Shown here: positions 1-63,797 of the stretch, in pieces | Numbering within the stretch: the stretch's first letter is position 1 | How the letters are laid out: each line of letters opens with the position of its first letter | Origin: a virus | DNA length: 64,000 nt | IMG/VR virus record: IMGVR_UViG_3300047166_000016 | Location: 3,661-67,660 of that record | Reading direction: 5' to 3' (one strand) | Notes under the pieces: model-generated | What the model saw: the letters and a program-made list of their open reading frames with translations, nothing else | What the model was told of the DNA's origin: nothing | Databases searched by the model: none | Position numbers and translations under genes: made by a program

Positions 1-325
1 GCCGCCCATGTAACCGGCCGGTGTGTTGATCGTTACCCCCGAATCTGTCGGCGTCATCGTCAGGCTCGTGATGTTCTGAGACAACACAATCTCCAATGGC
101 CACAGCGTGAACGTGGCGAGCTGCGCGTCGGGGTTTGCGCCACGGCCGATGCGGCTGTCGCCAGCCAAAGGATCGCTGCCTTAAACTTCATCGTCATGGT
201 CCCACCGTGATAACATGGTTGCGCCAGAACCGACGCCTGCTCTTGCTTATGTCCGACGATCTGCACGAACGCGCCATTGTTGATGACGTGCGTGCGGTTG
301 CTCTCGCTGTCCACTCCCCGATTAC
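1..325 (-). pseudogene. Deletion-riddled relic of a paralogous tailspike plus partner gene pair
   Basis: About 195-325 encodes GVDSESNRTHVINNGAFVQIVGHKQEQ, matching GFDSESQGYNNNTHVINNGSFVQIVSQKNEQ of 894..3083. ATG at 191 gives signal peptide MKFKAAILWLATAASAVAQ. A shifted frame gives WPLEIVLSQNITSLTMTPTDSGVTINTP, resembling WEIEVVSDVQINSFALTPVGSGTTVVNP of 322..891. Confidence 0.7.
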
Positions 326-891
326 CTCGGACGCCACTGATTGACGGAGCTACCGGAGCCATTTGGTCCCGTGGTCAAAACATACTGCCACTTCATCGGC
401 GTAAACGGAGCGAGAGAGGCCGGTGGATTGACCACAGTTGTCCCACTCCCGACCGGTGTCAGCGCGAAAGAATTTATCTGCACGTCGGACACGACCTCGA
501 TTTCCCATCGGTCGAGAATGGCCGGTAATACGACGGTATAAGAGAGTATCGTGGAGGTTGCGTGCAGATCGATATATTTCGATCCGGTCGGGACCGTGTA
601 GCTGCCCCCGCTCGTCATGGTGACGTAGTTATAGGGCATGAATGCCCGCCAGATGTCGGAGCAGTTGACGCGCTCCCCATACGACCCTGGGGTCAGGTTG
701 TTGGCGTCGATCAGGAATGCCTCGTCCTGCCCGAGCGGGCTGTTGGCGAAATTGCAGTTCATAAAATTGGTGCCGCTGAGTTCGGGCGGTAGCGTGTTCA
801 GCCGTTGCGGTGTCACCGTTTGCGCGCGACTGGCGAGCGGGGTCAGCAAGGCGATCCCAAGGGCCAGAGCCAGAGAAGCACAGAGTTTCAT
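322..891 (-). CDS. Signal-peptide-bearing tail-module protein (189 aa)
   Basis: Start taken as ATG 891, just after the stop of the upstream gene. N-terminus MKLCASLALALGIALLTPLASRA|QTV; beta-rich mature part. Confidence 0.75.
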   Translation of the reverse strand: MKLCASLALALGIALLTPLASRAQTVTPQRLNTLPPELSGTNFMNCNFANSPLGQDEAFLIDANNLTPGSYGERVNCSDIWRAFMPYNYVTMTSGGSYTVPTGSKYIDLHATSTILSYTVVLPAILDRWEIEVVSDVQINSFALTPVGSGTTVVNPPASLAPFTPMKWQYVLTTGPNGSGSSVNQWRPR

Positions 892-893
892 CT

Positions 894-3083
894 TTATGGT
901 CCTACCGCTATGACTGAGTTTAGGTCTCCGGCTGCCACCCCATAGCCTCCACCCAGGTCGATGTATGTCAGCGACGATGGCAAGGCGACGGTCGCTATCG
1001 CACCGTAGATGGTCGGACCCCCAGGCAACAGTGTCGCGGATGGGTTGCTGCCGAAAGGCACAAGCACCGCGCCCGTGAACGTATTCGATGCCGCCGTAGC
1101 CGGGATCGGCGTGCCTCCACGGTTCGCCGGATAATTCGAAGCGAAAACATAATCGAAATAGACTGTCCCGTAGGACAACCCGAACATCGGCAACGAGCCG
1201 ACCCATTGTTGGTTTTGGATTGTGAACCCGCCGAAATTTATCGTCGTGCCGCCCTTGTTGGTCTGGGCGATCTCCGCGCCCTGTTCGTTCTTCTGGCTGA
1301 CGATCTGAACGAAGGAGCCGTTGTTGATAACGTGCGTGTTGTTGTTGTATCCTTGGCTCTCGGAGTCGAAGCCCCACATATAGACGGTCTGTCCGTTGGC
1401 GATGACCACGCCATTGCAGATATCGATTGCATAGACGGGCGGACTACCGGCCGTCCCGGTCGCGACGATATCGGTGCCCCAGGTATCGATGCTCATGTCG
1501 CGAAGCAGCAGCGAGTTACCGTTGGTGCAGAAGTACGGGATACCAGTCTTGGTCGCACCAAGGCCAGGAACCTGGAAGTCCTCGACTACCAGCAGCGAAG
1601 TTCGATTGGCGATGCTGAAGAAGCACGACGGGGACGTGAACGAGACGTCCGGTAGGACGTTGGCCCCGAACCCGATGATGCGATTGACACACGCTGGAAT
1701 GGTGAGCGTTGTCGGGACATCGTAGGAGACGTCGTTACCGGCGTTGGTCCAGTAGACCGTGGTTCCTGTCCCTGGCGATCCGACGCACGTATTGAGCGTC
1801 GTCTGCATTTGCGCCCCGGTGTAGGTGGCCCCGGTCGTCACCCATTGGCCTATCGGATCGTCGGGCGGAACTGTCTCGCGGACGTTCTGGATCGGGACGG
1901 GGGTGCAGGACTGGTTGACCGTCGTGGTGCCGGTCGGCGATGTCTGAACAATCGTGCACCCAATCTGACTGGCCCCCAACGAGACAGATCCGAAAACACC
2001 GTTCGTTGTCGTCTCAACGGATTGGGTCGATGCCGGGAAATTCGCGCCGATTGTTCCATGATTTAAGTGGACGTTCCCGCCGTAGCAGCCTCCATGCCCG
2101 GAGTTTAAGGCCGCGCAAGTAGCCATAGGCTGGTTGTAAATCGAATTGATGAAGATGGCCGGACTATTCGTTGGATCTGGCGAAACAATGCTAAAATTGT
2201 TGATAACGACAGAGGCGGACTCGTTTATGCAAACGGTCGGCACGGAGTTGACAGAGTATAAGCCGTCCACCACGAATGGGTATCCAGCGGGAGGCCCCTG
2301 GGGCAGCAGCCCGCATCCAGTTTGGCCGACAAGTGTCAAATCTCGAAAAGTCGTTGTATATTGATTGAACGTCATGCAGACGCCAGTGCCGAACCCGACG
2401 ATCCGCACGTTGTCGTAGGTAGTCGGCCCCTGATAGGATGGGGTCAAATCGAGACCGCATCCGGTGCCGCAGTTTCCTGGGCATATGAGATCGATGTTGC
2501 TCCCTCCGCCGTAGTTATTTGTTAGCATCTGCGCGGCTGTCGCGCCTGGGTTATTATAGCCCGTGTTAATCGTTAAATCGCGAATGGCCGTGGTAAACGC
2601 CTGAGCGTCGCCGCCGCATTTTACTTCTGTTAGTATGCACGAAGAGAAAACCGGACGCGGAGCATAGTAGGCATTCTGGAACAGCGGATTGCTGTCGGTT
2701 AGCTTTATTTGAGTGACTCCGCGCCCCATTCCCCGGACCACGAACCGTTTCGATAAGTTCTCGTTTCCGCCGGGGGTGATCGTGTTGGAAACCAGGCAGA
2801 CGCCCACGGGAAGAAACACTTCTGCCCAGGCAGATCGGGGGCTGTTAGCCGCCGCGGCCAGGACATTGTTTAGTGCTGCCGTATCGTCGGTCGCGCCGTC
2901 GCACTTCGCACCGTAAGCGGGGTCGGTGGCACAGAAAGCCGCCGCGCCGATTTGCGGGCACGTCGGATAAACAAGCGGCGTCGGCGTAAATACGGTCTGC
3001 GCGTGCGCTCTGGGCGACAGGCATGCCAGAACGACAATCGTTGACAAGGCAAAGAGAAGCGGAAACAGGAAGCGATTTTTCAC
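894..3083 (-). CDS. Pectate_lyase_3/GH55-like beta-helix tailspike or depolymerase with signal peptide (729 aa)
   Basis: YGAKCDGATDDTAAL, VFLPVGVCLVSNTI and VRGMGRGVTQIKL motifs. GTG 3083 overlaps the upstream TGA (GTGA). Leader MKNRFLFPLLFALSTIVVLACLSPRAHA|Q. Confidence 0.8.
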   Translation of the reverse strand: MKNRFLFPLLFALSTIVVLACLSPRAHAQTVFTPTPLVYPTCPQIGAAAFCATDPAYGAKCDGATDDTAALNNVLAAAANSPRSAWAEVFLPVGVCLVSNTITPGGNENLSKRFVVRGMGRGVTQIKLTDSNPLFQNAYYAPRPVFSSCILTEVKCGGDAQAFTTAIRDLTINTGYNNPGATAAQMLTNNYGGGSNIDLICPGNCGTGCGLDLTPSYQGPTTYDNVRIVGFGTGVCMTFNQYTTTFRDLTLVGQTGCGLLPQGPPAGYPFVVDGLYSVNSVPTVCINESASVVINNFSIVSPDPTNSPAIFINSIYNQPMATCAALNSGHGGCYGGNVHLNHGTIGANFPASTQSVETTTNGVFGSVSLGASQIGCTIVQTSPTGTTTVNQSCTPVPIQNVRETVPPDDPIGQWVTTGATYTGAQMQTTLNTCVGSPGTGTTVYWTNAGNDVSYDVPTTLTIPACVNRIIGFGANVLPDVSFTSPSCFFSIANRTSLLVVEDFQVPGLGATKTGIPYFCTNGNSLLLRDMSIDTWGTDIVATGTAGSPPVYAIDICNGVVIANGQTVYMWGFDSESQGYNNNTHVINNGSFVQIVSQKNEQGAEIAQTNKGGTTINFGGFTIQNQQWVGSLPMFGLSYGTVYFDYVFASNYPANRGGTPIPATAASNTFTGAVLVPFGSNPSATLLPGGPTIYGAIATVALPSSLTYIDLGGGYGVAAGDLNSVIAVGP

Positions 3084-3283
3084 TGAAAATCTTCCGTCAT
3101 GCTGGCCCAAGGTGTGGGAGACGTGTTCTTCCATGAGCCGACCAACTTCAGTTTGGGGTATTTTCGGTGGAGCGGTTCTTCGAGATAAACCGGCGCATTC
3201 GCATCCCCCGCGTTCCACACTGGATCTATAACAGGTCGAGCATCTGCGCTCAGCCAAAACAGGGTCAGCAAAAGGAGGCTCAC
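3080..3283 (-). CDS. Small protein with hydrophobic, signal-like N-terminus
   Basis: GTGA overlaps with both neighbours; MSLLLLTLFWLSADA|R. Confidence 0.6.
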   Translation of the reverse strand: MSLLLLTLFWLSADARPVIDPVWNAGDANAPVYLEEPLHRKYPKLKLVGSWKNTSPTPWASMTEDFQ

Positions 3284-5286
3284 GAGAAGGATTCCGTTAT
3301 CGTCATTTCACCGTTTCCGCCGTTTCCGCCGTTCCCGCAAGTGGAGCCGTTCCGGCAGGCTCCGCCACCGCCGCCGCCACCACCGGCATTCGCGCCGTTA
3401 CCGCCGTTTCCGCCCGCACCAGATGGATTTCCATAACCGCCGCCACCCCCGTTGCCTGGGAAGGAGGCCAACACGGTCGTTCCGTTTTGACCATTCGGCG
3501 ATGAGGACGTGCCGCCCGTCGCGGGTGTTTGGGTGGTGGGACCGCGAGCGCCGCCACCAGGACCGCCGTTGCTACCGGCGTTGAGAGACGTGATGCCGCC
3601 ACCGGCTCCGCCGCCGGACGATCCGAACCACGATACCCCGCCTGTCGAACCGATCCCGCCGTTCGTCGGCGAACCACCGGCACCGCTGCCGCACCAAACC
3701 TGACCGCCAGCGCCACCAGCGGCACCCGTGCTTCCGCCCGATCCGCTGCACGGAGATCCAGCGGCACCGCCGCCCGTTCCCGATGCGTTTCCGCCAGCCG
3801 ACGTACTACCGCCCGCTCCGCCCGCCGATGCGGTGCCGCTCGGATTTCCTGGCGATCCAAACCCGCCTGCTCCGAAAACAGCGAGAGAGCCGAACACGGT
3901 ATTCAGACCGGCGACGCCTGGGCTCCCGGCCGTGTTGTTCGCGACAGCCCCCAATCCGCCCAGTCCGGTCGCGCTGGTGCCCATCGTGATCGCGACGCTA
4001 CCGCCGACCGCGGCAATATCGGCGGCGGTGTATTGGAGGCCCTGATAATTCGCGAAAGCTCCGCCGCCACCCCCGCCGCCTGTCGCCGCGACGCCTGCCG
4101 CGGATTCCCCGCCGCCCGCGCCCCCGCCACCTTGCCCGGCCCCCTGAACCAAGATGCGCACCATGCCAGCGGAGGGCGTGTAGGTGCAGTTGCTGGTGGA
4201 AGCCGTGCACACGACCTGGGTGCAAACCCCAAGCCCGCCCTGGCATGCCACATCGATGCACGACCCGCTGGTTCCGGTGCCGCACGTGACCTGGGTCAGC
4301 GTAATGATATTGATCGGCGTGATGCCGGTCGGGGTGGACCAGTGGCACGTGCTGTCGAGATAAGTGTGCGGCGAAGGCGAAGTGCCGCTGCACATTTGTC
4401 CGACCTGGACATAACCGGAGATCGAAGCGAAGTTAGTGACGGTCGCGAAAGAGTCCTGATAAATGCCGACCCCTTCGGACCAGAATATACCGCTTTGGCC
4501 CTGTCCGGCGACGGGCGGCGACATCTGCCCGGCCGTCGTCGGAGAGACGGTGTAAGGACCGGTCGTATTATTGACGATATCCCATCGTCCACCCGCTAAG
4601 CCCGCGGGAAAAAACAGCGTCGCGTTGCCGCTCAATGTGCCGGTTAAGACGATGGTCTGGTTTTCGTATTGCGCCAGAGTGAGTGTATTCGTTCCGGCCA
4701 CGACGGGCACGGTGACATAACCATACCCGAGAAATTTAGCGAATTTAGGATTATTCAGACCGATGGAAACGCCATCCATCCGCCCTCCCGTGAGCCATAA
4801 ATAATTCGGACTTTGGAATGCCATCCCTCCCAGACCGGCGATCTGTTTCGCTTTATAGTCCGCGTATTGTCCGACGACGTTACCCATACGCCCGAACACG
4901 GACGGCACATTCCCGGACCCGCCGCCGCCACCGGTCGAGTTGATCGTTATCCCGCCTGGGGAATTGTTAATCGTAACGTTCGTGCCCGCTGTCAGCGTTC
5001 CGAGCGTAAAACCGGACCCATTGCCGATAAGCAACTGACCGCTCGCCCCGCCCAGCCATGACGTCGCCGATCCGGTTCCCGTCGCGGCCGGGAGTTGAAG
5101 CGATGCGCCGGGCGCGTATGTCGGAGGCGTGAAAACCGATGCCCCCGATTGATTGAGGATCGACCCTCCGAGCAGGAGATTGTTGACGGGCGCGGATGGG
5201 CAGGCGGTAAGGATCGAGGGGCAGTTCTGCGCGGAGGCTGTCGCGGCCCATAGGACCGCGAACAGAATTAACCCGAGGATACGCAC
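3280..5286 (-). CDS. Gly-rich tail-fibre-like protein with signal peptide (668 aa)
   Basis: Leader MRILGLILFAVLWAATASA|QNC; fibre motif VPSVFGRMGNVVGQYADY; C-terminal Gly-rich domain ending GGNGEMTITE; 14 Cys. Confidence 0.8.
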   Translation of the reverse strand: MRILGLILFAVLWAATASAQNCPSILTACPSAPVNNLLLGGSILNQSGASVFTPPTYAPGASLQLPAATGTGSATSWLGGASGQLLIGNGSGFTLGTLTAGTNVTINNSPGGITINSTGGGGGSGNVPSVFGRMGNVVGQYADYKAKQIAGLGGMAFQSPNYLWLTGGRMDGVSIGLNNPKFAKFLGYGYVTVPVVAGTNTLTLAQYENQTIVLTGTLSGNATLFFPAGLAGGRWDIVNNTTGPYTVSPTTAGQMSPPVAGQGQSGIFWSEGVGIYQDSFATVTNFASISGYVQVGQMCSGTSPSPHTYLDSTCHWSTPTGITPINIITLTQVTCGTGTSGSCIDVACQGGLGVCTQVVCTASTSNCTYTPSAGMVRILVQGAGQGGGGAGGGESAAGVAATGGGGGGGAFANYQGLQYTAADIAAVGGSVAITMGTSATGLGGLGAVANNTAGSPGVAGLNTVFGSLAVFGAGGFGSPGNPSGTASAGGAGGSTSAGGNASGTGGGAAGSPCSGSGGSTGAAGGAGGQVWCGSGAGGSPTNGGIGSTGGVSWFGSSGGGAGGGITSLNAGSNGGPGGGARGPTTQTPATGGTSSSPNGQNGTTVLASFPGNGGGGGYGNPSGAGGNGGNGANAGGGGGGGGACRNGSTCGNGGNGGNGEMTITESFS

Positions 5287-6257
5287 AGAATATTCCCGTT
5301 ATTCCAGATTTGGTTCGGCGTGTGAGGATCGGATTGCGGCAACCCGATGCCGCCGAGCGCGAGCAACGCGCCGGACGTTATCCCGCCGAAATAGACCGCC
5401 GCCGCCGGAACGTAGGTAAAGCCCGGATTGACATAGATAAACGACGGCCCGACCGTTGGCGCGAACAACGTGCCGGCCGTGCCGCCGCCCGCCGTGGGCC
5501 AGCCGGTCGTAACCGGAAGCGCCAGGAAGCCGCCATAGTTTTCCAGGCCGGTCGAAGTCGGACCCGCCGATATGTAAACGACGGCGCCATTCAGCCAGAG
5601 TTGATTGACGACCTGCGGATCGTAAAGCGGAAAATTCCCCGCGCCGATCAAGAGCAATTCGTTTGCCGAGATCGAGCCGAAAAACACGCCGGGAAGAAAC
5701 GGGTTCGGCACCGCGCCCGCCACCGCCGAAACGGTATAGCCGTTGGCCCACACATTGCCCGGCTGCAACCCCGTCGCCGCCTTGGGCCAGCCGTAGGGGT
5801 TCGTCAAGGATAGTATGGGGCCATTGGCGAACAGATTGGTCGGAGCGGTCCAGACCAGCGCCGCGCCGTATCCGGGATTTGCCGGAACCGGAACGGGATA
5901 GCCGCACAGACCTGGCGCGATGCCCTGATAGATAACCCACTCGATTGTCTCGCCGTCCTGTAGCGCGGCGATAAACAAAATCGAGTAAATGCGAGTGGAC
6001 TGTCCACCAGATACTTCCAGCGTCAATGTATTAGCGAACAGATCGACGGTCAGCGTGTTCAGCGTCAGTTCGCCCGACCCGGACGGCGCGACCTCCGCGC
6101 TGAGCGTGGCGATATTCGCCGCCTGTAGCGCGGTCAAAACCGTTAACAGGCTGAAGGTCTGATTAACCTCTGTCGCCGCCGCCTTAAACGGAAACCAGTT
6201 CTGAGCGATCGGCGATGGCGCGAACGCCGGCGGAACGCAGCACAGCGAAGCGGACAT
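5268..6257 (-). CDS. Putative fibre-tail adaptor with two C-terminal repeats
   Basis: GGAGG RBS. N-domain resembles fibre adaptors (WFPFK...VSGG...Y). Two repeats ending LP..DP....Q(L/I)W.NG. Confidence 0.55.
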   Translation of the reverse strand: MSASLCCVPPAFAPSPIAQNWFPFKAAATEVNQTFSLLTVLTALQAANIATLSAEVAPSGSGELTLNTLTVDLFANTLTLEVSGGQSTRIYSILFIAALQDGETIEWVIYQGIAPGLCGYPVPVPANPGYGAALVWTAPTNLFANGPILSLTNPYGWPKAATGLQPGNVWANGYTVSAVAGAVPNPFLPGVFFGSISANELLLIGAGNFPLYDPQVVNQLWLNGAVVYISAGPTSTGLENYGGFLALPVTTGWPTAGGGTAGTLFAPTVGPSFIYVNPGFTYVPAAAVYFGGITSGALLALGGIGLPQSDPHTPNQIWNNGNILCVSSG

Positions 6258-6330
6258 GCGAACCTCCTACCACCAGGTCATTTTGTCTCGCGGCGACGAG
6301 TCCGTCATCGACGCGCGCCGGTCCATTACC

Positions 6331-7254
6331 TCACCATCTCACGATCACGAGGCCGGGATTGCCAGCGCCGCCGGTAAAGAACAATCCGGCGGCGGCACCC
6401 GTTCCGCCGCCTCCAGCTCCGGGACCGCATCCGACTGGCCCCGTAGCACCTTGACCCGTGGAAAATCCGCCGGGTGAGCAAAAAGCATGGCCTCCCGATC
6501 CGCCGCTCAGGCCAACCCCCCCGGCCTGCGTTACAGACCCCCCGCCCCCGGTGCCAGGCTGGTTGTTATAGCCTCCGGTTCCAATTCCATAAGAGCCGCC
6601 GCCCGCAGTGCCGGAGTTGTTGCCGAATGCGCCCCCACCGCCCCCGGTCGCGCTACAGAACGACCCAAACGATGAACTTGTCCCGGCGCTTCCGGCGACG
6701 GCACCAATGCCGCCGGCGCCGCCCGAGCCAACGGTAATGGCGATCGTTGCGCCCGGCGAGACAGTGAAAACCCCGCGGGTGTAACCCGCGCCCCCGCCAC
6801 CGGCGCTGCCTCCATTATTGGCCGCCCCGCCCGCGCCGCCACCACCGCCCCAGACTTCGACATCGGCGCGGATGACACCAAGCGGGACTGTCCAAGTGCC
6901 GGAAGAGGCGAAAACCATTACGCCGAGGTAGTTGGATAGCGATAAAAGACTCGCCATCGTTCCGGCGGTGTTAAGGTTTTGGACCAGATCGCCCGCGTTC
7001 CAAGCCAACGCCGTCGTGCCTTCCTGCGCGCGAACGATGGTGAAAGTATCGGTGGACCGTGCCGTGCAATAAACGATCTCGCGTATCAGAATATTCGTCG
7101 CGGAAATCAGCGTGACCGCGAATTGCTGCCCCGCCGCCGGGCTTGGAAACAACGCGCCCTGCCCAGGACTGACCGCAAGCGTCGTCGCGCCGCTCGATAT
7201 GCCGCCCGCGAGCGTTGAACCGGCGTTGTTCGCGAAAAGGAACTGGCTGCTCAT
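6331..7254 (-). CDS. Baseplate-attached tail fibre protein
   Basis: FANNAGSTLA...EIVYCTARSTDTFTIVRAQEGTTA N-domain typical of Bcep781-like fibres; Gly-rich C-domain; no signal peptide. Confidence 0.8.
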   Translation of the reverse strand: MSSQFLFANNAGSTLAGGISSGATTLAVSPGQGALFPSPAAGQQFAVTLISATNILIREIVYCTARSTDTFTIVRAQEGTTALAWNAGDLVQNLNTAGTMASLLSLSNYLGVMVFASSGTWTVPLGVIRADVEVWGGGGGAGGAANNGGSAGGGGAGYTRGVFTVSPGATIAITVGSGGAGGIGAVAGSAGTSSSFGSFCSATGGGGGAFGNNSGTAGGGSYGIGTGGYNNQPGTGGGGSVTQAGGVGLSGGSGGHAFCSPGGFSTGQGATGPVGCGPGAGGGGTGAAAGLFFTGGAGNPGLVIVRW

Positions 7255-7652
7255 TACTGAATGACCCAGACGTTGTAGACCACGCCGACCGGCGTCGTGG
7301 CGACAATGGCCCCCACGTTAACCGTCACCGTGCCCGTCGATGACACGTATCCCCAGATCGAGAGAGCATGACTGGCATCGACCTGCGGATTTGTCGCCGG
7401 CGAGACGACAACCGCCATGCCTGTCGTCGCTCCGGCCACCGCCACGGTGCCGCTGGCCGATGCCCCGGCGGCCAGCGCGCCGCCGCCTATCGTTCCGGTT
7501 GTCCCGATCAATTCGACCGCCACGGTGCCGGTCTGGGCGGGCAGCGTGACGGTATGCGTGCCGACCGTCGCGATGGCTTGCACCGTGATGGTGCCGCTGG
7601 TCGATCCGAGGAAGAGTCCTTGATTGAGCGACGGTGTAATAGTGCCAGACAT
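7254..7652 (-). CDS. Small tail or fibre-associated structural protein
   Basis: Thr/Gly/Val beta-rich; coupled to its neighbours in the tail operon. Confidence 0.6.
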   Translation of the reverse strand: MSGTITPSLNQGLFLGSTSGTITVQAIATVGTHTVTLPAQTGTVAVELIGTTGTIGGGALAAGASASGTVAVAGATTGMAVVVSPATNPQVDASHALSIWGYVSSTGTVTVNVGAIVATTPVGVVYNVWVIQ

Positions 7653-8603
7653 TCACGCTATCCCTACCACGCCGCCGTTGTTCCAAAGTTGCCCGCTGCC
7701 CGCCGCCGGAGCCGTCAAAGGCAGGTTCCCGCCGCCCAACATGAGCAACGATCCCGACGTGACCAGTCCGAAATAAAGCGGTGCGGCGAACGGGTTAGGC
7801 GTAACGCCTGGAACCACCGTCACAATCCCGCCGTTATCCCATACCGCGCCCGCGACAAGCCCGGACGGCGAGGTGGGCCAACCCGTCGCGAGCGTGAGAT
7901 TGAGCCACCCGCCGTCGTTCAGGAAATTGGTGGGTCCGATATTGTTGACAATCGCGACCGAAAACGAAAACTGAAACGGCAATGGGATAATCGCCGATTG
8001 CACCGCCGCCTGGAATATCTGCGCGTTCTGTAGCGTGATCGACCCAGAGGACGTGAGCGTGATCGTTATCGTGACGGCGTAGTTATTCCCGAATGCGACG
8101 CCAATTTGATAGGTGTTATCGATGTTCGGCGCGGTGCCGTTCGTGCCGATCAGAAACCGGACGATGCGGCGCTTCAGCCACTGAATGGTAAACTGCTGCC
8201 CATCGCCCTTGAAAAACGACCACGTTATGACCCTGCGAAAGATATCGTCCGTTACGATATATGAATTGATCGCGCCCGATATCTGGATCGCGTTGTATTC
8301 GAGCGTGTTAAATTCGATCGTATCGAACAGACCGAAGGCGACAATCGTCCCGTCTGGGATAGAGGGGCGACCGATCCCGTATAGCCCTTCCGCGACCCAA
8401 TCGAGCAACGGTCCCGACACGTTCGAGTTGGTGTAGTCGCCGAGCGGTGTCGCGTTGAACCAGTTCAGGTAATTCTGCGAGACCTGATTATACGCGGTAA
8501 AAAAAGCCGCGATGTTATCGTCATCGTTGTATTGTTGATAGGGATACGAAGGAACAATCATCCGCGTCGATGTTGTCGAAGATGGAGGCCACGTGCCGCT
8601 CAT
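7653..8603 (-). CDS. Baseplate wedge protein (DUF2612-like) with C-terminal extension
   Basis: YQQYNDDDNIAAFF, LLDWVAEGLYG and DDIFRRVITW motifs; follows baseplate J. Confidence 0.75.
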   Translation of the reverse strand: MSGTWPPSSTTSTRMIVPSYPYQQYNDDDNIAAFFTAYNQVSQNYLNWFNATPLGDYTNSNVSGPLLDWVAEGLYGIGRPSIPDGTIVAFGLFDTIEFNTLEYNAIQISGAINSYIVTDDIFRRVITWSFFKGDGQQFTIQWLKRRIVRFLIGTNGTAPNIDNTYQIGVAFGNNYAVTITITLTSSGSITLQNAQIFQAAVQSAIIPLPFQFSFSVAIVNNIGPTNFLNDGGWLNLTLATGWPTSPSGLVAGAVWDNGGIVTVVPGVTPNPFAAPLYFGLVTSGSLLMLGGGNLPLTAPAAGSGQLWNNGGVVGIA

Positions 8604-10033
8604 CCTTGGACAATCGTAACGGCGGACGCGGTGCAGGAGAAGTAGCTTTCCGGATCGCCGTAGATCGCCTCCGAACCGGCGCCTGGATTTGTCAGAATGC
8701 TATTGATGTAAACAGCGAACACAATCCGCGTTATCAGCACCGTCGAGATGATCGAAACAATCGACGCCACGAATACATCCTGCAACTCGAACACGTTGAT
8801 CGGTGCCCCGACCGGTATCGAATTGATGTAAGCGGCGATGGCCGGTTGCGCCAACGCGGAAACCGCCGTCGGAGATACGTAGTTAGGCGATGGCGTGTTC
8901 CATGTCAGATTGACCGTCACGGTCTGAACTGGCGGGACCACGAACGGAACGGTGTAGGTATCCGGGTAATTATTCAGATTGATACTCTGGTTTCTGAAGT
9001 TCGGCGTGACAACGCCTCCGCTCGTCCAGGCCCCTGAGCTTGTCGTGTCGATGCCGATGCTGAATGTTTTGTTCGTTATGACGGTAATGGTCAACGGCGT
9101 TCCGTTGATACCCGAGATGCCGACCGCCCCGGCGATGTTGACGATCTGGCCGCTTGTGTAACCATGATTGAGGCCGGTCGTGACCACGCCTGGATTGGCG
9201 TTCGTAATGCCGGTCACGTTCAGGATCGACCCGACCAGCGTCGAGACATCGAACAACGAATCGAGGATCGCCGCCGCGATGGCATAGGGATCGGCTGTTC
9301 CGCCGACGATAACTTCCCATCCGCCGCCGACCTGTTGCCGAACCGATACGAGGTTCGGCTGCACCCCGGAGACCTGACCCAGATACGCTTTGAGATAGGC
9401 TGTCATGCCGGTGGAAGCCACCAGACCGGCTTGCAGCACGCGGGCGGCGAATTGTGCCTGCGTTTCCGCCGCGCCGCCCGGAGTGCCCGCGAGCGGGTTC
9501 GTGGCGGTAAGCGTGACACCGCTCGGAGCCGACGTGACCAGCGTCGTGACGGTGTTCGCCGGCACGGCCCACGACCCGCTGAGCGTGGCCTGACAGAACA
9601 GCGGAACCGATGCCCCGCCCGAGGCGATAACGCCGCCGTCGATCACCGCATACTGGTAGGTGCCGTCGCTGACCAGAAATCCGGGATTGACCAGAAACCC
9701 GACCGTGCCGCTGAACACGACATAAACTGCCGTATTGGTGGCGGGGAGATTGGTCGATCCCTGTCCGAGATAAATCTGCCCGAGCGCCAAAAGCGTGAAC
9801 GGATTAGCGCCATATGGCGTTAACGAGTTTATCGCATCGACCTGAGCCTGATCGATTTGCAGCGCGGCACCGGTCGCGGTGCTGCTCATATCCTCGATCA
9901 GCCCGGCCGGGAGAATGGTCAGACCGGGCGATTGCGCCGTCGCGGCGGCGACGATGGCGGCATTGATCGCTTCCGGCGTCTGCGGAACCGCGCCGATACT
10001 CGTTACGGTCGGCGTGCCTATCGAACCGCTCAT
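8600..10033 (-). CDS. Baseplate J/gp47-like protein with inserted beta domain
   Basis: LPAGLIEDMSST, GWEVIVGG and DPYAIAAAI motifs; insert ITNANPGVVTTGLNHGYTSGQIVNI. Confidence 0.85.
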   Translation of the reverse strand: MSGSIGTPTVTSIGAVPQTPEAINAAIVAAATAQSPGLTILPAGLIEDMSSTATGAALQIDQAQVDAINSLTPYGANPFTLLALGQIYLGQGSTNLPATNTAVYVVFSGTVGFLVNPGFLVSDGTYQYAVIDGGVIASGGASVPLFCQATLSGSWAVPANTVTTLVTSAPSGVTLTATNPLAGTPGGAAETQAQFAARVLQAGLVASTGMTAYLKAYLGQVSGVQPNLVSVRQQVGGGWEVIVGGTADPYAIAAAILDSLFDVSTLVGSILNVTGITNANPGVVTTGLNHGYTSGQIVNIAGAVGISGINGTPLTITVITNKTFSIGIDTTSSGAWTSGGVVTPNFRNQSINLNNYPDTYTVPFVVPPVQTVTVNLTWNTPSPNYVSPTAVSALAQPAIAAYINSIPVGAPINVFELQDVFVASIVSIISTVLITRIVFAVYINSILTNPGAGSEAIYGDPESYFSCTASAVTIVQG

Positions 10034-10368
10034 GACGGGATCGGCACCGTATCGAACAGCGCGGCCCCGGTTTGCGCCAGGGCGCGCACGTTATAGACCG
10101 GGTTGCGTCCCGGCTCCCGCGCCACGCTGAGATTGGCGAAATACGGCGCGAATTGCTGCTGCGTCATCGCGACATAGAAATCCGGGTAAATTTGCTGCAT
10201 CACCGATTGCTGAGCAGGAATGCCGTAATTGGCGAAAAATGGAGATTCTCCGAGATTGAGCAACAACGTCTGGCAAAGCGTAACGAACCAAACGAGGTCG
10301 TTATAGCCTTTCGCGTCGGTCGTGACCTCGTGCCATGTGCCATCCGGTGTGCGCCCCCACGTCCTCAC
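10030..10368 (-). CDS. Baseplate wedge / sheath initiator subunit
   Basis: MRTWGR...LNLGESPFFANYGIPA; lies between the spike and J genes. Confidence 0.7.
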   Translation of the reverse strand: MRTWGRTPDGTWHEVTTDAKGYNDLVWFVTLCQTLLLNLGESPFFANYGIPAQQSVMQQIYPDFYVAMTQQQFAPYFANLSVAREPGRNPVYNVRALAQTGAALFDTVPIPS

Positions 10369-10967
10369 GGGACCACCGGCCCGGTATCGCCGCTGCCCGT
10401 CGAAACGCCACTATGGACGTGCGGCAGGAACGCCACCCCATCGATCGTCACGCCCGATCCGTTTATGACCACGCTATGCCCCCCGACCGCGAGCGTAATC
10501 GCGGTGGACGTGATCGTGAGGGACGACGATCCGGCCGCGGCTTTCGCGAGAATGCCGTTCGGGCCGCCCGTAAGCGTGAGTTGGTTCGGATCGACCGAAT
10601 CCCATCCCGTGTTGCCGATCGGTGACCACACCAGCGGCGTAAGATTGCCCCGGATCGTCCCATCCGCCACACCGCCCCCGAGGCCCGACATGCCGCCCAG
10701 GTATGTGTCGGCGGCGATTGTGACGCCCTTTTCGCCGGGCTGGATCGGCACCCGGACATACTGCGAGCCGAGAGTCGGAACCGTGGCCTGCGGAATTGTC
10801 TGAGTGCCGGTCAACTCGAAATTGATTTGCACGATGGCCCCCACGATTTTGACCACCGAAGCTGGAAGCGATCGCCCCAAAACCTGTATCGCATCTTGAG
10901 CCGCGCCGCGCACGAACCGATTGATCGAGCGGCCGAACGGAATGGTCTGCGGGTTTATTATGGTCAT
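10365..10967 (-). CDS. Baseplate central spike (gpV/gp138-like)
   Basis: C-terminal H-x-H metal tip (HVHSGVSTG..TGP); ATG 10967 in ATGA overlap. Confidence 0.85.
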   Translation of the reverse strand: MTIINPQTIPFGRSINRFVRGAAQDAIQVLGRSLPASVVKIVGAIVQINFELTGTQTIPQATVPTLGSQYVRVPIQPGEKGVTIAADTYLGGMSGLGGGVADGTIRGNLTPLVWSPIGNTGWDSVDPNQLTLTGGPNGILAKAAAGSSSLTITSTAITLAVGGHSVVINGSGVTIDGVAFLPHVHSGVSTGSGDTGPVVP

Positions 10968-11971
10968 GCGTTCGGCGCCGTCCCCGCTTCGACCGTCGTG
11001 TTCCACGACGCCGCGTCGGATTGGCGAAAATTACCGAAGTGCTGCACGGTCTGAACCACGAAGTTGCCCGTCTGCGCCGATTTGTCGCGAAAACTGAGTT
11101 GCGAGTTGGCTGACGTCGTCGCGAACGATGGCGGAATGTTGATCGTGTCGTTTACCGCCAGGTCGCCGCGCAACACGAACTTCACCTGTATCCGCCCTTG
11201 CCCGATCCAGATCGGTTGCCCGATCATATCCTGAAACGCGATCTTCTTGATCGCCGATTTCTGTGGCGCGACGGTGCCGTCGTATGCCGTGACGGTATCG
11301 CCGATGGTGGCGATTTTGACGCCCTGGTATGTCCCGCCGATGATCGTCTTCGAGATGCTGTTGACGTAATCGGTCAGTTGCGTGAGCGAGTCGTAATGAC
11401 CGATCTCATCGTTCCCTAGCACCAGATTTGGGCTTATCGCTATGTTCTGCTTGATGCCAGGATAAGCCGTCGAAAGGGTCTGCGCCAAGGCGTCTTTGAG
11501 TTGCGTTCCTTTCAACCAGACAAACGGGAAATTGTCTACCCCGTCGTTTATTCCTGCTCCTACGCCGTTCGCGGTAAACCAAAAATTGAGCGTCTGTTCG
11601 GTCCCGATCCAGTTGCCCCATGCCTGGAATATCCGGCCCGACATGATAAGGCCCTGTTGCGACGGATTGGCGAGCGGCAACCCCTTCGACATGCCCGCGC
11701 TAATTTTGACATTGACCGTGTTATTCGGCGGCGAAAGATCGATTGCGCTGGTGATCGCCTGAAGCCCGAGGCCGTAGATGCACAGCATCGCCGCCTGGTT
11801 TTGATTTCCTGGCGTCGTATTCACGACCGGGATATCGAACTCGATGTTGAGCGCGGCGGGATTCGGCTTGCCATTCGGCAACAGGCTCGTGATGCCAACC
11901 CCGCCGAGACTGGCCGGAAGAACGGGTTTCCCGGTTGTGCCATCCGTCAGCGCGATATTGTAATACCGCAT
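10964..11971 (-). CDS. Baseplate hub protein
   Basis: MRYYNIAL start (TGATG overlap); GMSKGLPLANP, GNWIGT and HFGNFR motifs; synteny. Confidence 0.75.
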   Translation of the reverse strand: MRYYNIALTDGTTGKPVLPASLGGVGITSLLPNGKPNPAALNIEFDIPVVNTTPGNQNQAAMLCIYGLGLQAITSAIDLSPPNNTVNVKISAGMSKGLPLANPSQQGLIMSGRIFQAWGNWIGTEQTLNFWFTANGVGAGINDGVDNFPFVWLKGTQLKDALAQTLSTAYPGIKQNIAISPNLVLGNDEIGHYDSLTQLTDYVNSISKTIIGGTYQGVKIATIGDTVTAYDGTVAPQKSAIKKIAFQDMIGQPIWIGQGRIQVKFVLRGDLAVNDTINIPPSFATTSANSQLSFRDKSAQTGNFVVQTVQHFGNFRQSDAASWNTTVEAGTAPNA

Positions 11972-12240
11972 CAGCCGACCTCGAACGTCTGTGTCGTGTC
12001 GCGATAGATTATCGCCGTCGTGAAATAGCCCCCGGTCAAAGAGATATCGTAATCCGGCGGCGAGGCGATCAACGCGCGGCAGAATATCTGCACGAAGTTC
12101 TGAGTATAGACGTTCAGATACCAGCGCTGCCCGTAAATGTTCCACGTTACGGTGCAGTTATACGTTTCGCCCGCGTCCAGCGTGGCCGAAAACTGAAACG
12201 GCCCCTCTGGCGTTGGTGCGAATTGAACGTAGACCGTCAC
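11971..12240 (-). CDS. Small baseplate (plug-like) protein
   Basis: WNIYGQRWYL motif; position between initiator and hub. Confidence 0.65.
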   Translation of the reverse strand: MTVYVQFAPTPEGPFQFSATLDAGETYNCTVTWNIYGQRWYLNVYTQNFVQIFCRALIASPPDYDISLTGGYFTTAIIYRDTTQTFEVG

Positions 12241-12284
12241 AGGATCCTCTTGAAGCTGTCGGCTTTAGCGGGTCTGGCGGTCCA

Positions 12285-13025
12285 TTACATATTGCCTATC
12301 GTGTAAGGCGAATTGACCGAGGCCGCGCCCGCCGATGGGATCAGGTTCGGCGTTTGCGCGCTGTTCGGACTGCCGAGGCCGCTCGATAGCCCGGACCAGA
12401 ACGGCGGATCGCCATTGAGTTGTGTTCCGTTGGCGATGCTGCTCATCAGGTTATTGAGCAAGCCGCCCTGCGACTGTTCGAGCGTGAGAAGCGGCTGCTC
12501 GAAATCCCATTGCCACGCCGACTGGCGCTGCTTGCTTGCCCCGCTGGTCACGTCGCGGATCGCCTTGAGTATGGCATACCGCCAGAATGCCATCGGTGTT
12601 ATGACGATATAAGTCCCGCCTAGCGCGGCGTGCTGCGCCACGGCGGCCTGTAACGCCATCATGACCGCCAGGTTGCCGGCGAACCCGCCCGATACGGGAC
12701 GCGAGGGACACCGCATCAGCATGGAAACCGTCAACGGTTGCGCGATGATGGCGTTGGCCGCGATTTTTTGATTTGCGAACGGATACTTGCCCAACTCGTA
12801 ATCCGCGATTGTCGCACCGGGCAATGGCTCGAACGCGGCGAAAAAGTCGTCCAGTCCTGGCGTGATCGCACCCCCGAGCAAACCGGCCACGAAGCTGATT
12901 GTTTGCGTAATCGAGATAATCGGCAGCATCCCGAACGGCATATTCGTCGCGATCCCGTTCACGAACACGATAGGGCTGCACTGGAACGCCAGCTCGAACG
13001 CTTGCTGACCCGCCGTCCCGCTCAT
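12285..13025 (-). CDS. Tail tube initiator / Dit-like baseplate protein
   Basis: Directly after the tape measure gene; YPFANQ..AANA and WQWDFEQPL motifs. Confidence 0.65.
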   Translation of the reverse strand: MSGTAGQQAFELAFQCSPIVFVNGIATNMPFGMLPIISITQTISFVAGLLGGAITPGLDDFFAAFEPLPGATIADYELGKYPFANQKIAANAIIAQPLTVSMLMRCPSRPVSGGFAGNLAVMMALQAAVAQHAALGGTYIVITPMAFWRYAILKAIRDVTSGASKQRQSAWQWDFEQPLLTLEQSQGGLLNNLMSSIANGTQLNGDPPFWSGLSSGLGSPNSAQTPNLIPSAGAASVNSPYTIGNM

Positions 13026-57557: not shown

Positions 57558-58097
57558 TCATGCGGCATCGTCCTCGGTCGCCGTGCCAGCCGCAACAGCG
57601 CCGACGATCGGCAGTTTGGTCGATACACCTTGACCTCCCGGCGGATCGTCAGAGCGACGGTTGGCCTTGCGCGGCTTCCCGCCGACATAGGTTTCGTCCA
57701 TTTCGACCAGACCAGTCAGCAGCGCACCGTTGTCCGTCATGGCCTTCCGAACGCGGTGCATCATGGACCAAACGGTCGGCTGGCGGATTTCGATATCTCG
57801 CGCGGCCTGCATGGAGGACAACCCCTTCTTGGCGCTGAGCATCAGGGAGACCAGCAGAAACCAGCGTTGCAGGTCGATATGGGTTTTGTGAAAGATCGTG
57901 CCGACGGTGACGGAAAACGATTTCTTGCAGTCCTGGCATTGCCAGCGATCGTCTCGGGTGACTTCCCGATGGCGCGAGACTTTGCTGGACGCGCAATAAA
58001 CGCACGTGGGGCTTTCGCCCCATCGCACGCTTTCAAGATGCTGGATGCACGCTTCGCGCGTGGGCCAGCGGCGGTATACTTCGACGATGCCGGTCAT
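57558..58097 (-). pseudogene. IS1595-family transposase, C-terminally truncated
   Basis: Zn ribbon CVYC/CQDC, FSVTVGTIF, KKGLSS and VEMDETYVGG; homology stops after PIVGAV, so the later catalytic residues are missing. Confidence 0.9.
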
Positions 58098-59799: not shown

Positions 59800-60477
59800 T
59801 CAGGTGCCTGATGCGGCCCGAAATCGCCTGAGCGTCCGGCTCTGCGGCCCCTTGATCTGGCGCGAGCCGGAAGTGCGCGCCATGATTTGTTGCCACGGGC
59901 CGCCGTTTTTGCGTGCGCCAATGTATCCGCCCGAAGCCAGCCCAAATGGATAAGTAATCGGTGTGGACGTGCGGAACGTGTAAGGCCCCTTGCCGTCAGG
60001 ATCGAACCACGACGGGCGCACGAAATCCGACAAGAAATGACCCCCGACCGGATAAGCAAACTTGTCGTCCTCGCACGCATCGCAGACTTCCCAACAATAC
60101 TCCATCGGCCCGACCGTCACGGTGCGCGTAATCTGCGGATCGGCCAGCATTTCGAGCGTTTCGTGACTGGCCGTGACGTTCCAGTTCAGTCCGTCCCGCA
60201 AACAATCGGCAACATAGACATACCCGTTCGGCTCATTTGGGTCGTCATGCACGCCAAGCTCGCCATCGACCGGCGCATGGTCGCGAAACCACACAATCCA
60301 GCAGTCGAGCGGCAACACGTCGCCGCCTTTGACAAATTCGCATTTGGCATCGAGGCCCCAGATCGGCGCGAAGTCTCGGCTGATCTGGATTTGTTGCGCC
60401 GCGACATAAGCCTCGATCAGCGCGTCGGTCAGAAGCGCGGTGTCGCGGACGTAAGCGATGAGGGGAATGTCGGTCAC
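59800..60477 (-). CDS. Zincin-like metallopeptidase-domain protein
   Basis: [23 protein letters not shown] and LSDFV motifs; GTGA overlap. Confidence 0.6.
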
Positions 60478-62365: not shown

Positions 62366-62511
62366 CGCGTCGATACCATCCGCAACGTCTCCATCGTGCC
62401 TCGCATTGTCAGCGAGCAGCGGCGACAATGCCATGTGCCCATGCCGATCGTGGTCGATGGATCGCGGGTCCACACGAACTCGTGCGCGCATGGGCGCCAC
62501 GTGGCGGTCAC
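62362..62511 (-). CDS. Small Zn-ribbon protein
   Basis: CAHEF...HCRRC; coupled at both ends. Confidence 0.45.
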   Translation of the reverse strand: MTATWRPCAHEFVWTRDPSTTIGMGTWHCRRCSLTMRGTMETLRMVSTR

Positions 62512-63017
62512 GAAGCCTGGACCATGACAGGCGGCGTTGCCGGGCTTGCCGCTGCTATCGTCGCCGCCGCGGGCAATCTCGCGGCAAGCGCGGTTGTGAC
62601 AGCCGTATTCTTGTTTGCCGCACTGGCCGCGGAGGTAACGGCACTCGCGGCATCGGGGAAATGTTGGTTCATGTAGTCGGTCGCCTCTTGCAGCGCGAAG
62701 TCGTGAGCAGCCTTGCTGGTCCACCCTTCATTGGCGATAATGTCCTTGGCTTTGGACAAGCCGACACTAAGACACGTCATCGCGGCGGTCTCGAATGCCG
62801 AGGCTTGCCCGGCGGAAACCTCCAATCCCTGCTTTGCCGCCTGAGCACGCAACACGTCGATCACGAATTTACCGATGATCGGAATAGCGACCGTGGCGAC
62901 ACCGATCAGCGTATTCCACATATCGGCAGTCAATTCGTTCGCGGAAGTCGGTGCGGCCTGCGCGAACGCCGCGACCGGGACCGCGAAGGCCGTGCTGGCC
63001 AGGAGGATGGTTTTCAT
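62508..63017 (-). CDS. Holin-like membrane protein with signal peptide
   Basis: MKTILLASTAFAVPVAAFA|Q, one TM segment, helical C-terminus; upstream of the endolysin. Confidence 0.6.
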   Translation of the reverse strand: MKTILLASTAFAVPVAAFAQAAPTSANELTADMWNTLIGVATVAIPIIGKFVIDVLRAQAAKQGLEVSAGQASAFETAAMTCLSVGLSKAKDIIANEGWTSKAAHDFALQEATDYMNQHFPDAASAVTSAASAANKNTAVTTALAARLPAAATIAAASPATPPVMVQAS

Positions 63018-63716: not shown

Positions 63717-63797
63717 CTAACAAGTTTTTGACGGAAAATATACGAAAGACTTACAACCTCATGGGCAACTCACGGTAGCGGCGGTATCGTGCATCCA

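What the first reader, a model, noticed from the sequence alone, without database searches (positions are those of the whole stretch)
1..5286. Tail fibre and tailspike genes with Sec signal peptides and many cysteines: candidate periplasm-matured virion appendages
Seen: every gene distal to the putative adaptor in the virion operon starts with a signal-like leader: MRILGLILFAVLWAATASA|Q (5286), MSLLLLTLFWLSADA|R (3283), MKNRFLFPLLFALSTIVVLACLSPRAHA|Q (3083), MKLCASLALALGIALLTPLASRA|Q (891) and the relic MKFKAAILWLATAASAVA|Q (191). Starts are supported by overlapping or abutting stop codons. The two large proteins carry 14 and about 21 mature Cys, many closely spaced, versus 4 each in the leaderless fibre (6331) and the sheath. 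Their bodies look like fibre and spike parts (VPSVFGR motif, Gly-rich domain, pectate-lyase-type beta helix). Established: tailed-phage virions assemble in the reducing cytoplasm and their fibres normally lack signal peptides. Inference: these proteins are exported, disulfide-folded by host Dsb and loaded onto virions at or after lysis, or released as free depolymerase or decoy. I know of no description of such a route.
Basis: partly seen in the sequence, partly recalled or inferred. Interest (0 to 1): 0.88.

Follow-up and report, generated by a model that had tools for sequence, protein, structure and literature searches.

The report
Phage fibre genes carrying export signals
A 67-kb contractile-tailed phage from moss and peat puts ordinary bacterial secretion signals on a run of genes behind its tail fibre, including a fibre-like protein and a sugar-cutting enzyme, so these proteins probably mature outside the cytoplasm where phage particles are built.

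Summary
Observation confirmed and extended. Four fit Sec/signal-peptidase-I rules; the 67-aa one is weak. Three more leader-bearing ORFs lie just beyond the window start, then three leaderless ones.

My rule set fires on 22 of 2146 open start codons in the contig. 13 of these lie in this block. No trained predictor was available.

Leaders are kept in the only distant homologues found: P0016 for the fibre, P0005 for the enzyme.

The fibre (3280-5286) is a diverged member of a large unnamed family. Members have a leader, a cleavage site AxA|Q, then QTYPSPTF and fibre repeats. There are 484 cluster representatives. The family occurs in at least four phage architectures. In 54 of 62 loci the gene directly follows a leaderless protein ending ...WNNGGVxSxS.

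The "tailspike" (894-3083) models as a two-lobed GH55-like glycanase, not a trimeric spike.

Export is well supported. Loading onto virions is untested: my one complex job gave no answer and the RNA contigs did not discriminate. Eight literature searches found no description of exported tail fibres.

This scan has noted leader-bearing fibres before on other DNA, in at least 243 genomes.

The parts
7653..8603 (-). Baseplate wedge protein (316 aa). Its last ~84 residues (7656-7907) form a module ending GQLWNNGGVVGIA.
   Evidence: phrog_8212 at E 9e-61. 38 IMG/VR relatives. Module HMM hits.
6331..7254 (-). Leaderless tail fibre (307 aa). It has a conserved N-terminal attachment part and a Gly-rich tip.
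   Evidence: PF21722 at E 1e-11 and phrog_863 at E 3e-37. No leader. In relatives the N-terminal ~105 aa are conserved and the C-termini vary.
5268..6257 (-). Leaderless 329-aa protein. It has a weak adaptor-like N-terminus plus two copies of the wedge module. It ends ...IWNNGNILCVSSG and overlaps the next start by 19 nt.
   Evidence: PF23148 at E 0.0011, below the cut-off. Module HMM at E 9e-43 and 3e-38. C-terminal motif.
3280..5286 (-). Exported fibre-like protein (668 aa, P0001). It has a leader, a Cys-containing N-terminal stretch, fibre repeats, a 9-10-Cys central domain and a Gly-rich C-terminus.
   Evidence: phrog_12796 'tail fiber' covers residues 187-346 at E 1.5e-11. The 64% homologue P0016 has a leader plus QYPSPT.
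5230..5286 (-). 19-residue leader of P0001, predicted cleavage ASA|Q.
   Evidence: Rule-set score 6.74.
3080..3283 (-). 67-aa ORF with a weak hydrophobic N-terminus. Both ends are coupled by GTGA overlaps.
   Evidence: Score 4.5. No family hit.
894..3083 (-). Exported two-lobed beta-helix glycanase-like protein (729 aa, P0002), 21 mature Cys.
   Evidence: PF12708. Model and GH55 fold matches. The 44% homologue P0005 has a leader and the same cleavage context.
3000..3083 (-). 28-residue leader of P0002, predicted cleavage AHA|Q. A lipobox-like VLAC inside it is not kept in P0005.
   Evidence: Score 7.71. Sequences.
322..891 (-). Exported 189-aa protein of unknown function (P0003). Its leader spans 823-891.
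   Evidence: Score 5.91. No family or PDB hit. Only a 98% identical relative was found.
219..317 (-). Relic of a second glycanase allele.
   Evidence: 33 of 33 residues are identical to P0005 residues 622-654.
138..191 (-). Leader of the decayed gene behind the relic (MKFKAAILWLATAASAVA|Q).
   Evidence: Score 5.65.
62508..63017 (-). Another leader-bearing ORF (169 aa from ATG 63017). It lies downstream of the block once the circular contig is closed.
   Evidence: Score 6.38. phrog_17576 at E 3e-4. Contig ends overlap by 261 bp.

Best explanation
The block is a set of genuine Sec-exported proteins, co-transcribed and translationally coupled with the tail genes.

Steps:
1. They are made late.
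2. They cross the inner membrane.
3. Signal peptidase I cuts them at AxA|Q.
4. They fold in the periplasm, the Cys-rich ones with disulfides.
5. They are therefore not built into the tail in the cytoplasm.

Two kinds of protein are present.
- (a) 3280-5286 is an exported fibre. It belongs to a large conserved two-gene cassette: a leaderless protein ending ...WNNGGVxSxS, followed directly by a leader-bearing fibre.
- (b) 894-3083 is a GH55-like glycanase, with small exported partners.

My favoured fate: they work outside the particle. They would act on host envelope or matrix glycans from the periplasm, and as free proteins once lysis opens the cell. Any contact with virions can come only after the holin has opened the inner membrane.

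Shown by sequence: the leaders, their conservation, the coupling, the cassette and the fold. Inferred: actual export, disulfides, timing and targets.
For: Leaders, and the background rate of my rule set.

Homologues keep the leaders although the leader sequence differs.

Family size:
- 484 cluster representatives at E 0.001 or better, 145 at 1e-10 or better.
- Of the best 150, 134 carry the Q..[YFW]P.P motif within the first 45 residues.
- 123 of the 150 also pass my leader score with the motif at the cleavage site.

The -3/-1 residues fit signal peptidase I. The QTYPSPTF codons vary synonymously.

No promoter-like or convincing terminator-like site was found on the coding strand inside the block. 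Starts are coupled.

The enzyme:
- GH55-like fold.
- Cellular secreted relatives.

The phage and its relatives already have a leaderless fibre with variable tips.

About 7 of 80 family loci sit behind lysis genes or P2-like fibres. Three of these seven (L057, L090, L109) are among the 8 of 62 distinct loci where the motif was not found upstream. So the fibre N-terminus does not always travel with a virion partner.
Against: - A fibre shaft with a binding tip makes little sense as a free protein.
- The invariant mature N-terminus and the conserved upstream partner point to a specific docking interaction. That partner's motif also ends a true baseplate protein.
- In 17 of 80 loci the gene sits inside a podovirus-like structural block, between head and tail genes. 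In the one such locus I annotated (L103) it is the only protein there that matches a tail-fibre family.
- 22 of 27 related myovirus loci keep a QTYPSP-type fibre. That is unlike sporadic cargo genes.
- No trained signal-peptide predictor and no experiment was available.
Confidence: 0.5

Rival explanations
1. This is the first reader's main idea, applied to the fibre-type members. They are true virion receptor-binding fibres. They are exported, cleaved and folded in the periplasm. They then plug their new N-terminus (QTYPSPTF, here QNCPS...) into the leaderless WNNGG-ending protein on the finished particle. This would happen once holin holes join cytoplasm and periplasm, before or just after the outer membrane breaks.
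For: - Cassette of WNNGG-ending protein plus leader-bearing fibre in 54 of 62 distinct loci, and in the window.
- The same module ends the baseplate wedge.
- N-terminus conserved, C-terminus variable, as in docked fibres.
- Position inside structural operons in 72 of 80 loci. In the annotated podovirus-like locus L103 it is the only protein matching a tail-fibre family.
- Central and distal domains are shared with leaderless fibres.
- In a peat strain the cassette from about 4981 downstream is 99.4% identical while the flanks are 93-95%. So the leader plus first ~100 residues stay with the backbone.
- Recalled, not from a call: holin lesions are large, outer-membrane rupture by spanins is the last lysis step, and T4 fibres attach to particles in extracts.
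Against: - No tailed phage is known to add parts after export. This is recalled knowledge, plus eight searches that found none.
- Family members behind lysis cassettes: in L057, L090 and L109 the upstream motif was not found.
- These phages already have a leaderless fibre with variable tips.
- The same N-terminus serves at least four tail architectures.
- The enzyme 894-3083 has no particle-binding domain.
Confidence: 0.3
2. Lysogenic-conversion surface proteins. The genes would be expressed from the prophage. The fibres would be exported and held on the host envelope by their conserved N-terminus, as adhesins or receptor masks, like the fibre adhesins of Bdellovibrio.
For: - Bdellovibrio MAT fibres have a signal peptide, then a conserved N-terminal domain, and variable tips (PMC10769870, passages).
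- The family N-terminus is shared by unrelated phage types of the same host group, Paraburkholderia and Caballeronia.
- An O-acyltransferase gene lies beside the fibre gene in L047.
- Some family members sit in cargo-like positions.
Against: - No room for, and no sign of, an own promoter in the window. Spacing to the upstream ORF runs from a 4-nt overlap to 61 nt.
- No outer-membrane export system is encoded nearby.
- RNA contigs cover tail genes and leader genes alike, which does not discriminate.
Confidence: 0.1
3. The hydrophobic N-termini are not export signals. They would be uncleaved membrane anchors, or docking helices buried in a virion partner in the cytoplasm.
For: - The leader is translated next to the coupled upstream partner.
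- Only a rule set of my own was used.
Against: - The -3/-1 residues and the short polar c-region are conserved as signal peptidase I requires.
- Lys-Lys n-regions are present.
- No conserved internal start that could give a leaderless form.
- Cellular relatives of the enzyme are ordinary secreted proteins.
Confidence: 0.05

Closest known systems
Leaderless tail fibres of the same and related phages (PHROG tail-fibre families phrog_12796, phrog_11393, phrog_33320; Gly-rich tips, PF21722)
   Same: - Fibre repeats, central domains and tips are shared.
- Position at the distal end of tail operons.
- Conserved N-terminus with a variable C-terminus.
   Different: The N-terminal attachment domain is replaced by a cleavable leader plus the QTYPSPTF-type start. 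None of the PHROG matches covers that N-terminus.
Pantoea stewartii WceF, an exported glycan-modifying enzyme with a tailspike-like fold (PMC7949094, passages read)
   Same: A phage-spike-like beta-helix protein sent across the inner membrane to act on the cell's own exopolysaccharide. The signal is removed.
   Different: - WceF is chromosomal, a trimer, and uses a Tat signal.
- Here the genes are phage-borne and the leaders have no twin arginine.
- The enzyme models as a two-lobed GH55-like chain.
Bdellovibrio MAT fibre adhesins (PMC10769870, passages read)
   Same: Signal peptide, conserved part right behind it, fibre shaft, swappable tips.
   Different: - MATs are cellular proteins with a ~130-aa N-domain, shown on the predator surface.
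- Here the conserved part is short and the genes sit in phage tail operons.
- No sequence comparison was made.
GH55 beta-1,3-glucanases (PDB 5m5z, 3eqn, 4pew)
   Same: Best fold matches of 894-3083: two tandem beta-helix lobes, TM 0.56/0.54. One sequence relative is named GH55 by its source. That these are secreted enzymes is recalled.
   Different: 10-13% identity. Catalytic residues and substrate were not examined. Many extra cysteines. Phage-encoded.
Exported phage accessory proteins next to tail genes (lambda Lom and Bor, T5 Llp; recalled, not from a call) and leader-bearing genes of Porphyromonas phages (PMC10367356, passages)
   Same: Phage genes with export signals placed beside host-recognition genes. 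In the Porphyromonas paper, cleavage is predicted to expose an N-terminal Gln.
   Different: - Those are small membrane or unknown proteins, not fibre-shaped receptor-binding-type proteins.
- They have no conserved upstream partner.
- The paper does not mention tail parts in the passages I read.

Membership tests
Sec / signal peptidase I signal peptide | Positive n-region, uncharged hydrophobic h-region of 8 or more residues, small residues at -3 and -1. | tested here: met
   Met for four of the five window leaders and three beyond the window. The 67-aa ORF is weak, score 4.5.
Sec / signal peptidase I signal peptide | Features kept in homologues while the sequence drifts. | tested here: met
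   P0005 and P0016. 123 of 150 family representatives.
Sec / signal peptidase I signal peptide | Call by a trained predictor; cleavage and periplasmic location shown by experiment. | not testable with these tools
   No SignalP or similar tool was on hand. No proteomic data were found.
Tat signal or lipoprotein signal | Twin-arginine motif, or a lipobox Cys at +1. | tested here: not met
   No RR in any n-region. A VLAC in the 3083 leader is not kept in P0005, while AHA|Q / ARA|Q is.
Leader-bearing QTYPSPTF fibre family (unnamed) | Q[TS][YF]P[SA]PTF right after the cleavage site. | tested here: inconclusive
   P0001 has QNCPSIL. Its 64% homologue P0016 has QYPSPTV.
Leader-bearing QTYPSPTF fibre family (unnamed) | Gene directly preceded by a leaderless ORF ending ...WNNGGVxSxS. 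| tested here: met
   The upstream ORF in the window ends IWNNGNILCVSSG and overlaps the start. 54 of 62 family loci show the motif.
Trimeric phage tailspike (P22, Sf6 type) | One beta-helix per chain in a trimer, plus an N-terminal particle-binding domain. | tested here: not met
   The model has two lobes. Tailspikes match at TM 0.26 or less. Only ~28 mature residues precede the helix. Oligomeric state was not modelled.
GH55 glycoside hydrolases | Two-lobed beta-helix fold; family catalytic residues; activity on beta-1,3-glucan. | tested here: inconclusive
   The fold matches and PF12708 matches. Residues and activity were not examined.
Gly_rich_2 domain (PF21722) at the fibre tip | Match to the Pfam model. 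| tested here: not met
   No Pfam hit for P0001 at E 0.1 or better. Proteins carrying PF21722 do match its C-terminus weakly.
Morons (independently expressed prophage cargo) | Own promoter and terminator; sporadic occurrence. | tested here: not met
   No promoter-like site on the coding strand. Coupled starts. 22 of 27 related loci carry a QTYPSP-type fibre. Expression was not measured.

The most novel reading that the evidence does not exclude
Fibre-type members, including 3280-5286, are real virion receptor-binding fibres whose last assembly step happens outside the cytoplasm.

The proposed steps:
1. They are exported by Sec and cut at AxA|Q.
2. They fold and oxidise in the periplasm.
3. They dock by their new N-terminus onto the WNNGG-ending protein of the finished particle. 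This happens in the short interval when holin holes have merged cytoplasm and periplasm, or in the lysate.

This would be a conserved route in several hundred phages of Burkholderiaceae and Alphaproteobacteria, across myovirus-like and podovirus-like tails.
Probability: 0.3. Interest if true: 0.9.

Novelty: new variant of a known kind. Interest (0 to 1): 0.68.

Why it matters
Tailed-phage particles are taken to be built entirely in the cytoplasm. A large, conserved family of fibre-shaped, receptor-binding-type proteins with working export signals does not fit that picture, especially as they are encoded inside tail operons and paired with a leaderless partner.

There are two possibilities.
- Phages routinely send host-recognition-type proteins into the periplasm for jobs of their own, such as receptor destruction, matrix clearing or surface conversion.
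- Or particles receive parts after export.

Either way:
- Host-range prediction from "tail fibre" genes would need a correction.
- Annotation pipelines mis-call these genes. One GenBank phage record truncates the gene and annotates an antisense ORF.
- The cassette gives a directly testable system in culturable Paraburkholderia lysogens.

Tried and rejected
- **Complex prediction:** residues 141-329 of the 329-aa protein (3 copies) with P0001 residues 20-110 (3 copies). Result: no answer, score 0.00, controls not run.
- **AlphaFold model of the wedge** with 24 sequences: pLDDT 49.5, unusable.
- **RNA contigs:** two metatranscriptome rows, X19 and X20, give identical figures. They show short contigs over leader genes and tail genes alike, in 26 of 30 bins. 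This gives no ranking and DNA carry-over is possible.
- **A leaderless isoform from an internal start:** no conserved ATG/GTG/TTG with a ribosome site in 20 family leaders. Rejected.
- **Same tip on the leaderless and the exported fibre:** only E 0.12 similarity. Rejected.
- **Own promoter or terminator in the window:** none convincing. In L009 and L039, but not in the window, an intrinsic terminator lies ~18 nt before the fibre start.
- **Sequence searches that gave nothing useful:**
  - Phage collection with window DNA, no match.
  - Phage collection with P0001, one weak partial hit.
  - Viral contigs with P0001.
  - PDB by sequence, three queries.
  - NCBIfam, 10 proteins.
  - Protein Atlas, scores 0.82 or less.
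  - Pfam and PHROGs on the five ORFs beyond the window; only Laminin_G_3 on the last one.
  - P0003 homologues; only a 98% identical copy.
- **Lysis genes of this phage:** not found among the 20 proteins scanned. The lysis-window step therefore rests on relatives (and ORFs) and on recalled knowledge.
- **Literature:** eight searches found no paper describing exported tail fibres of tailed phages.
  - PMC5567305, PMC9144972, PMC5723332 and PMC7344957 were read as passages only and were irrelevant.
  - PMC10811340 (disulfide network in Agrobacterium phage Milano) and PMC6003464 were seen only as a listing and the start of the abstract. The first warns that virion disulfides need not imply export.
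  - Supplements were not consulted.


Full report
**What the DNA is.**
- The window is bases 3661-67660 of a single 67,660-bp virus contig. The contig ends overlap by 261 bp with 3 mismatches, so it is a circular or terminally redundant genome of about 67.4 kb.
- It holds near-identical copies in moss and peat metagenomes.
- The minus strand carries a contractile-tail late operon in this order: baseplate J (PF04865, phrog_6), a wedge protein (phrog_8212), a 132-aa protein, a leaderless fibre (PF21722, phrog_863), then a 329-aa protein with a weak adaptor-like hit.
- A GcrA-domain protein (PF07750, E 2e-8) fits an alphaproteobacterial host. That GcrA is restricted to that class is recalled knowledge.

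**The observation.**
- My rule set gives these scores:

| Start | Score |
|---|---|
| 5286 | 6.74 |
| 3083 | 7.71 |
| 891 | 5.91 |
| 191 (relic) | 5.65 |
| 3283 (67-aa ORF) | 4.5 |

- Over the whole contig the rules fire on 22 of 2146 start codons followed by 60 or more open codons. 13 of those lie in this block, counting alternative starts. Most of the others are antisense frames inside known genes.
- The block runs on beyond the window. On the contig, C1 3218-3595, 3006-3227 and 1972-3006 also start with leaders. Then come three leaderless ORFs, the last with a Laminin_G_3 domain. One more leader-bearing ORF lies at 62508-63017.
- Starts are coupled to upstream stops. No promoter-like site lies on the coding strand.
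- Cysteine counts are as stated.
- The relic at 219-317 is 33 of 33 residues identical to P0005.

**Are the leaders conserved?**
- The enzyme 894-3083 has one distant homologue, P0005 (44%). Its leader has a different sequence but the same cleavage context, ARA|QTTFAPQPLVYP against AHA|QTVFTPTPLVYP.
- The more distant relatives are cellular "GH28-related" or GH55 proteins. Most have leaders.
- The fibre 3280-5286 has one homologue, P0016. It is 64% identical from residue 83 on, and has the leader MVLLRNVLCFIAALFVATMAHA|QYPSPT.
- 10 of the 14/17 cysteines (fibre pair) and 13 of the 22/17 cysteines (enzyme pair) align.

**A family, not an oddity.**
- The wedge protein found 38 IMG/VR loci. 36 of them were examined (2 were left out). 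27 of the 36 have at least 4 kb after the wedge start. 23 of these carry a leader-bearing ORF of 170 aa or more within 6 kb, and 22 of the 23 begin MKK-hydrophobic-AxA|QTYPSPTF. L026, L027, L030 and L032 have none. L031 has other leaders. Some loci are duplicates.
- A profile of the first 70 residues was run against 1.84 billion cluster representatives. It found 484 proteins at E 0.001 or better, and 145 at 1e-10 or better.
- Of the best 150:
  - 134 carry the motif in the first 45 residues.
  - 123 also pass my leader score with the motif at the cleavage site.
  - Of 133 with the motif at least 10 residues in, position -3 is A in 114 and V in 15, and position -1 is A in 111 and G in 20.
  - Thirteen leaderless fibres match only the generic repeat further in.
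- The eight codons of QTYPSPTF differ synonymously among 20 loci, so the peptide itself is under selection.
- Named hosts are Paraburkholderia (4 loci), Caballeronia and a Rhizobiales genome.
- No Pfam, NCBIfam or PHROG model covers this N-terminus.

**Context of the family.** Eighty IMG/VR loci carry the N-terminus. They fall into these groups:

| Context | Loci |
|---|---|
| Behind this type of baseplate | 45 |
| Behind another baseplate type with a wedge-like module protein | 10 |
| Inside a podovirus-like structural block | 17 |
| Behind lysis genes or P2-like fibres | about 7 |
| Unclear | 1 |

- In the one podovirus-like locus I annotated (L103) the order is: portal, capsid, a 112-aa protein, the leader-bearing fibre, two virion structural proteins, then ejection proteins.
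- In 54 of 62 distinct loci, the reading frame that stops between 61 nt upstream of and 4 nt past the fibre's start codon ends ...LPTxxPxxxGxxW[ND][ND]xGxxSxS.
- The same motif ends the wedge protein and the two modules of the window's 329-aa protein. That protein's stop overlaps the start of 3280-5286.

**The "tailspike".**
- With 11 sequences the model of 894-3083 reaches pLDDT 70 and pTM 0.80. It shows two beta-helix lobes.
- The best matches are GH55 beta-1,3-glucanases: 5m5z at TM 0.56/0.54 and E 2e-10, and 3eqn. Sf6 and CBA120 tailspikes align only in part.
- Only ~28 mature residues precede the helix, so there is no particle-binding domain.
- I read it as an exported glycanase. Its substrate is unknown.

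**What happens after export.** No call settles this.
- For docking onto particles: the cassette, the baseplate-borne module, the invariant new N-terminus, and the position inside structural operons. In addition, in a peat strain the segment 219-4981 is 99.4% identical while neighbouring tail genes are 93-95%. So the leader and the first ~100 residues stay with the phage backbone while the rest moves as a cassette.
- Against docking: the same N-terminus serves at least four tail types. Among the members behind lysis genes, the motif was not found upstream in L057, L090 and L109. These phages already own a leaderless fibre with variable tips. The enzyme and the small exported proteins look like ordinary secreted proteins.
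- My odds:
  - 0.5 that the block works outside the particle.
  - 0.3 that the fibre-type members are loaded after export.
  - 0.1 for conversion-type surface proteins.
  - 0.05 for no export.

**Comparison with what is known.**
- Exported spike-like or fibre-like proteins exist in cells: WceF, which uses Tat, and the Bdellovibrio MAT fibres.
- Leader-bearing phage genes of unknown role were noted in Porphyromonas phages.
- In eight searches I found no paper on exported tail fibres of tailed phages.
- Earlier notes of this scan describe the same theme in at least 243 genomes. One of them concerns the very protein I call P0044. Later checks there kept the observation and priced the bold reading near 10 in 100. 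I did not test those notes beyond what is cited here.

Noticed in passing
L047:10546-12879 (GenBank OK094664.1): The record annotates a 418-aa CDS and an antisense 194-aa ORF. The open frame 10816-12879 in fact encodes a 687-aa leader-bearing QTYPSPTF fibre with a beta-helix. The same protein is named from Burkholderia contaminans by its sources. A second phage record of identical length (OP650936.1, another host name) gives the same hits. The host labels therefore look doubtful.
   Followed up: partly
window 219-4981 against 4981-12250: A peat metagenome contig is 99.4% identical over the exported-protein cassette but only 93-95% over the adjoining tail genes. The break lies near residue 100 of the fibre. 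This points to recent cassette exchange.
   Followed up: partly
contig C1 1-261 and 67400-67660 (window 63740-64000): The contig ends repeat each other over 261 bp with 3 mismatches. This is a circular or terminally redundant genome.
   Followed up: yes
L009:11942-11959 and L039:12410-12427: Strong intrinsic-terminator-like hairpins lie about 18 nt before the start of the leader-bearing fibre gene in these relatives. The window has none.
   Followed up: no
window 60474-60923 and 60920-61381: A phosphoheptose-isomerase-like protein (phrog_1238, E 8e-10) lies next to a 153-aa ORF with a lipoprotein-like start (…ALALAAC). These may be envelope-modifying cargo.
   Followed up: no
window 57558-58097: IS1595-type transposase fragment: zinc ribbon plus the start of the DDE domain.
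   Followed up: no
all leaders in the block and the family: The residue after the predicted cut is almost always Gln, in 7 of the 8 block leaders and throughout the family. This recalls the Q-rule described for Bacteroidetes (PMC10367356), although these hosts are Proteobacteria. N-terminal pyroglutamate is a possibility.
   Followed up: no
L075, L084, L038 (two tandem genes): Some relatives carry two leader-bearing fibres in tandem. A WNNGG-type segment again lies before the second one.
   Followed up: partly
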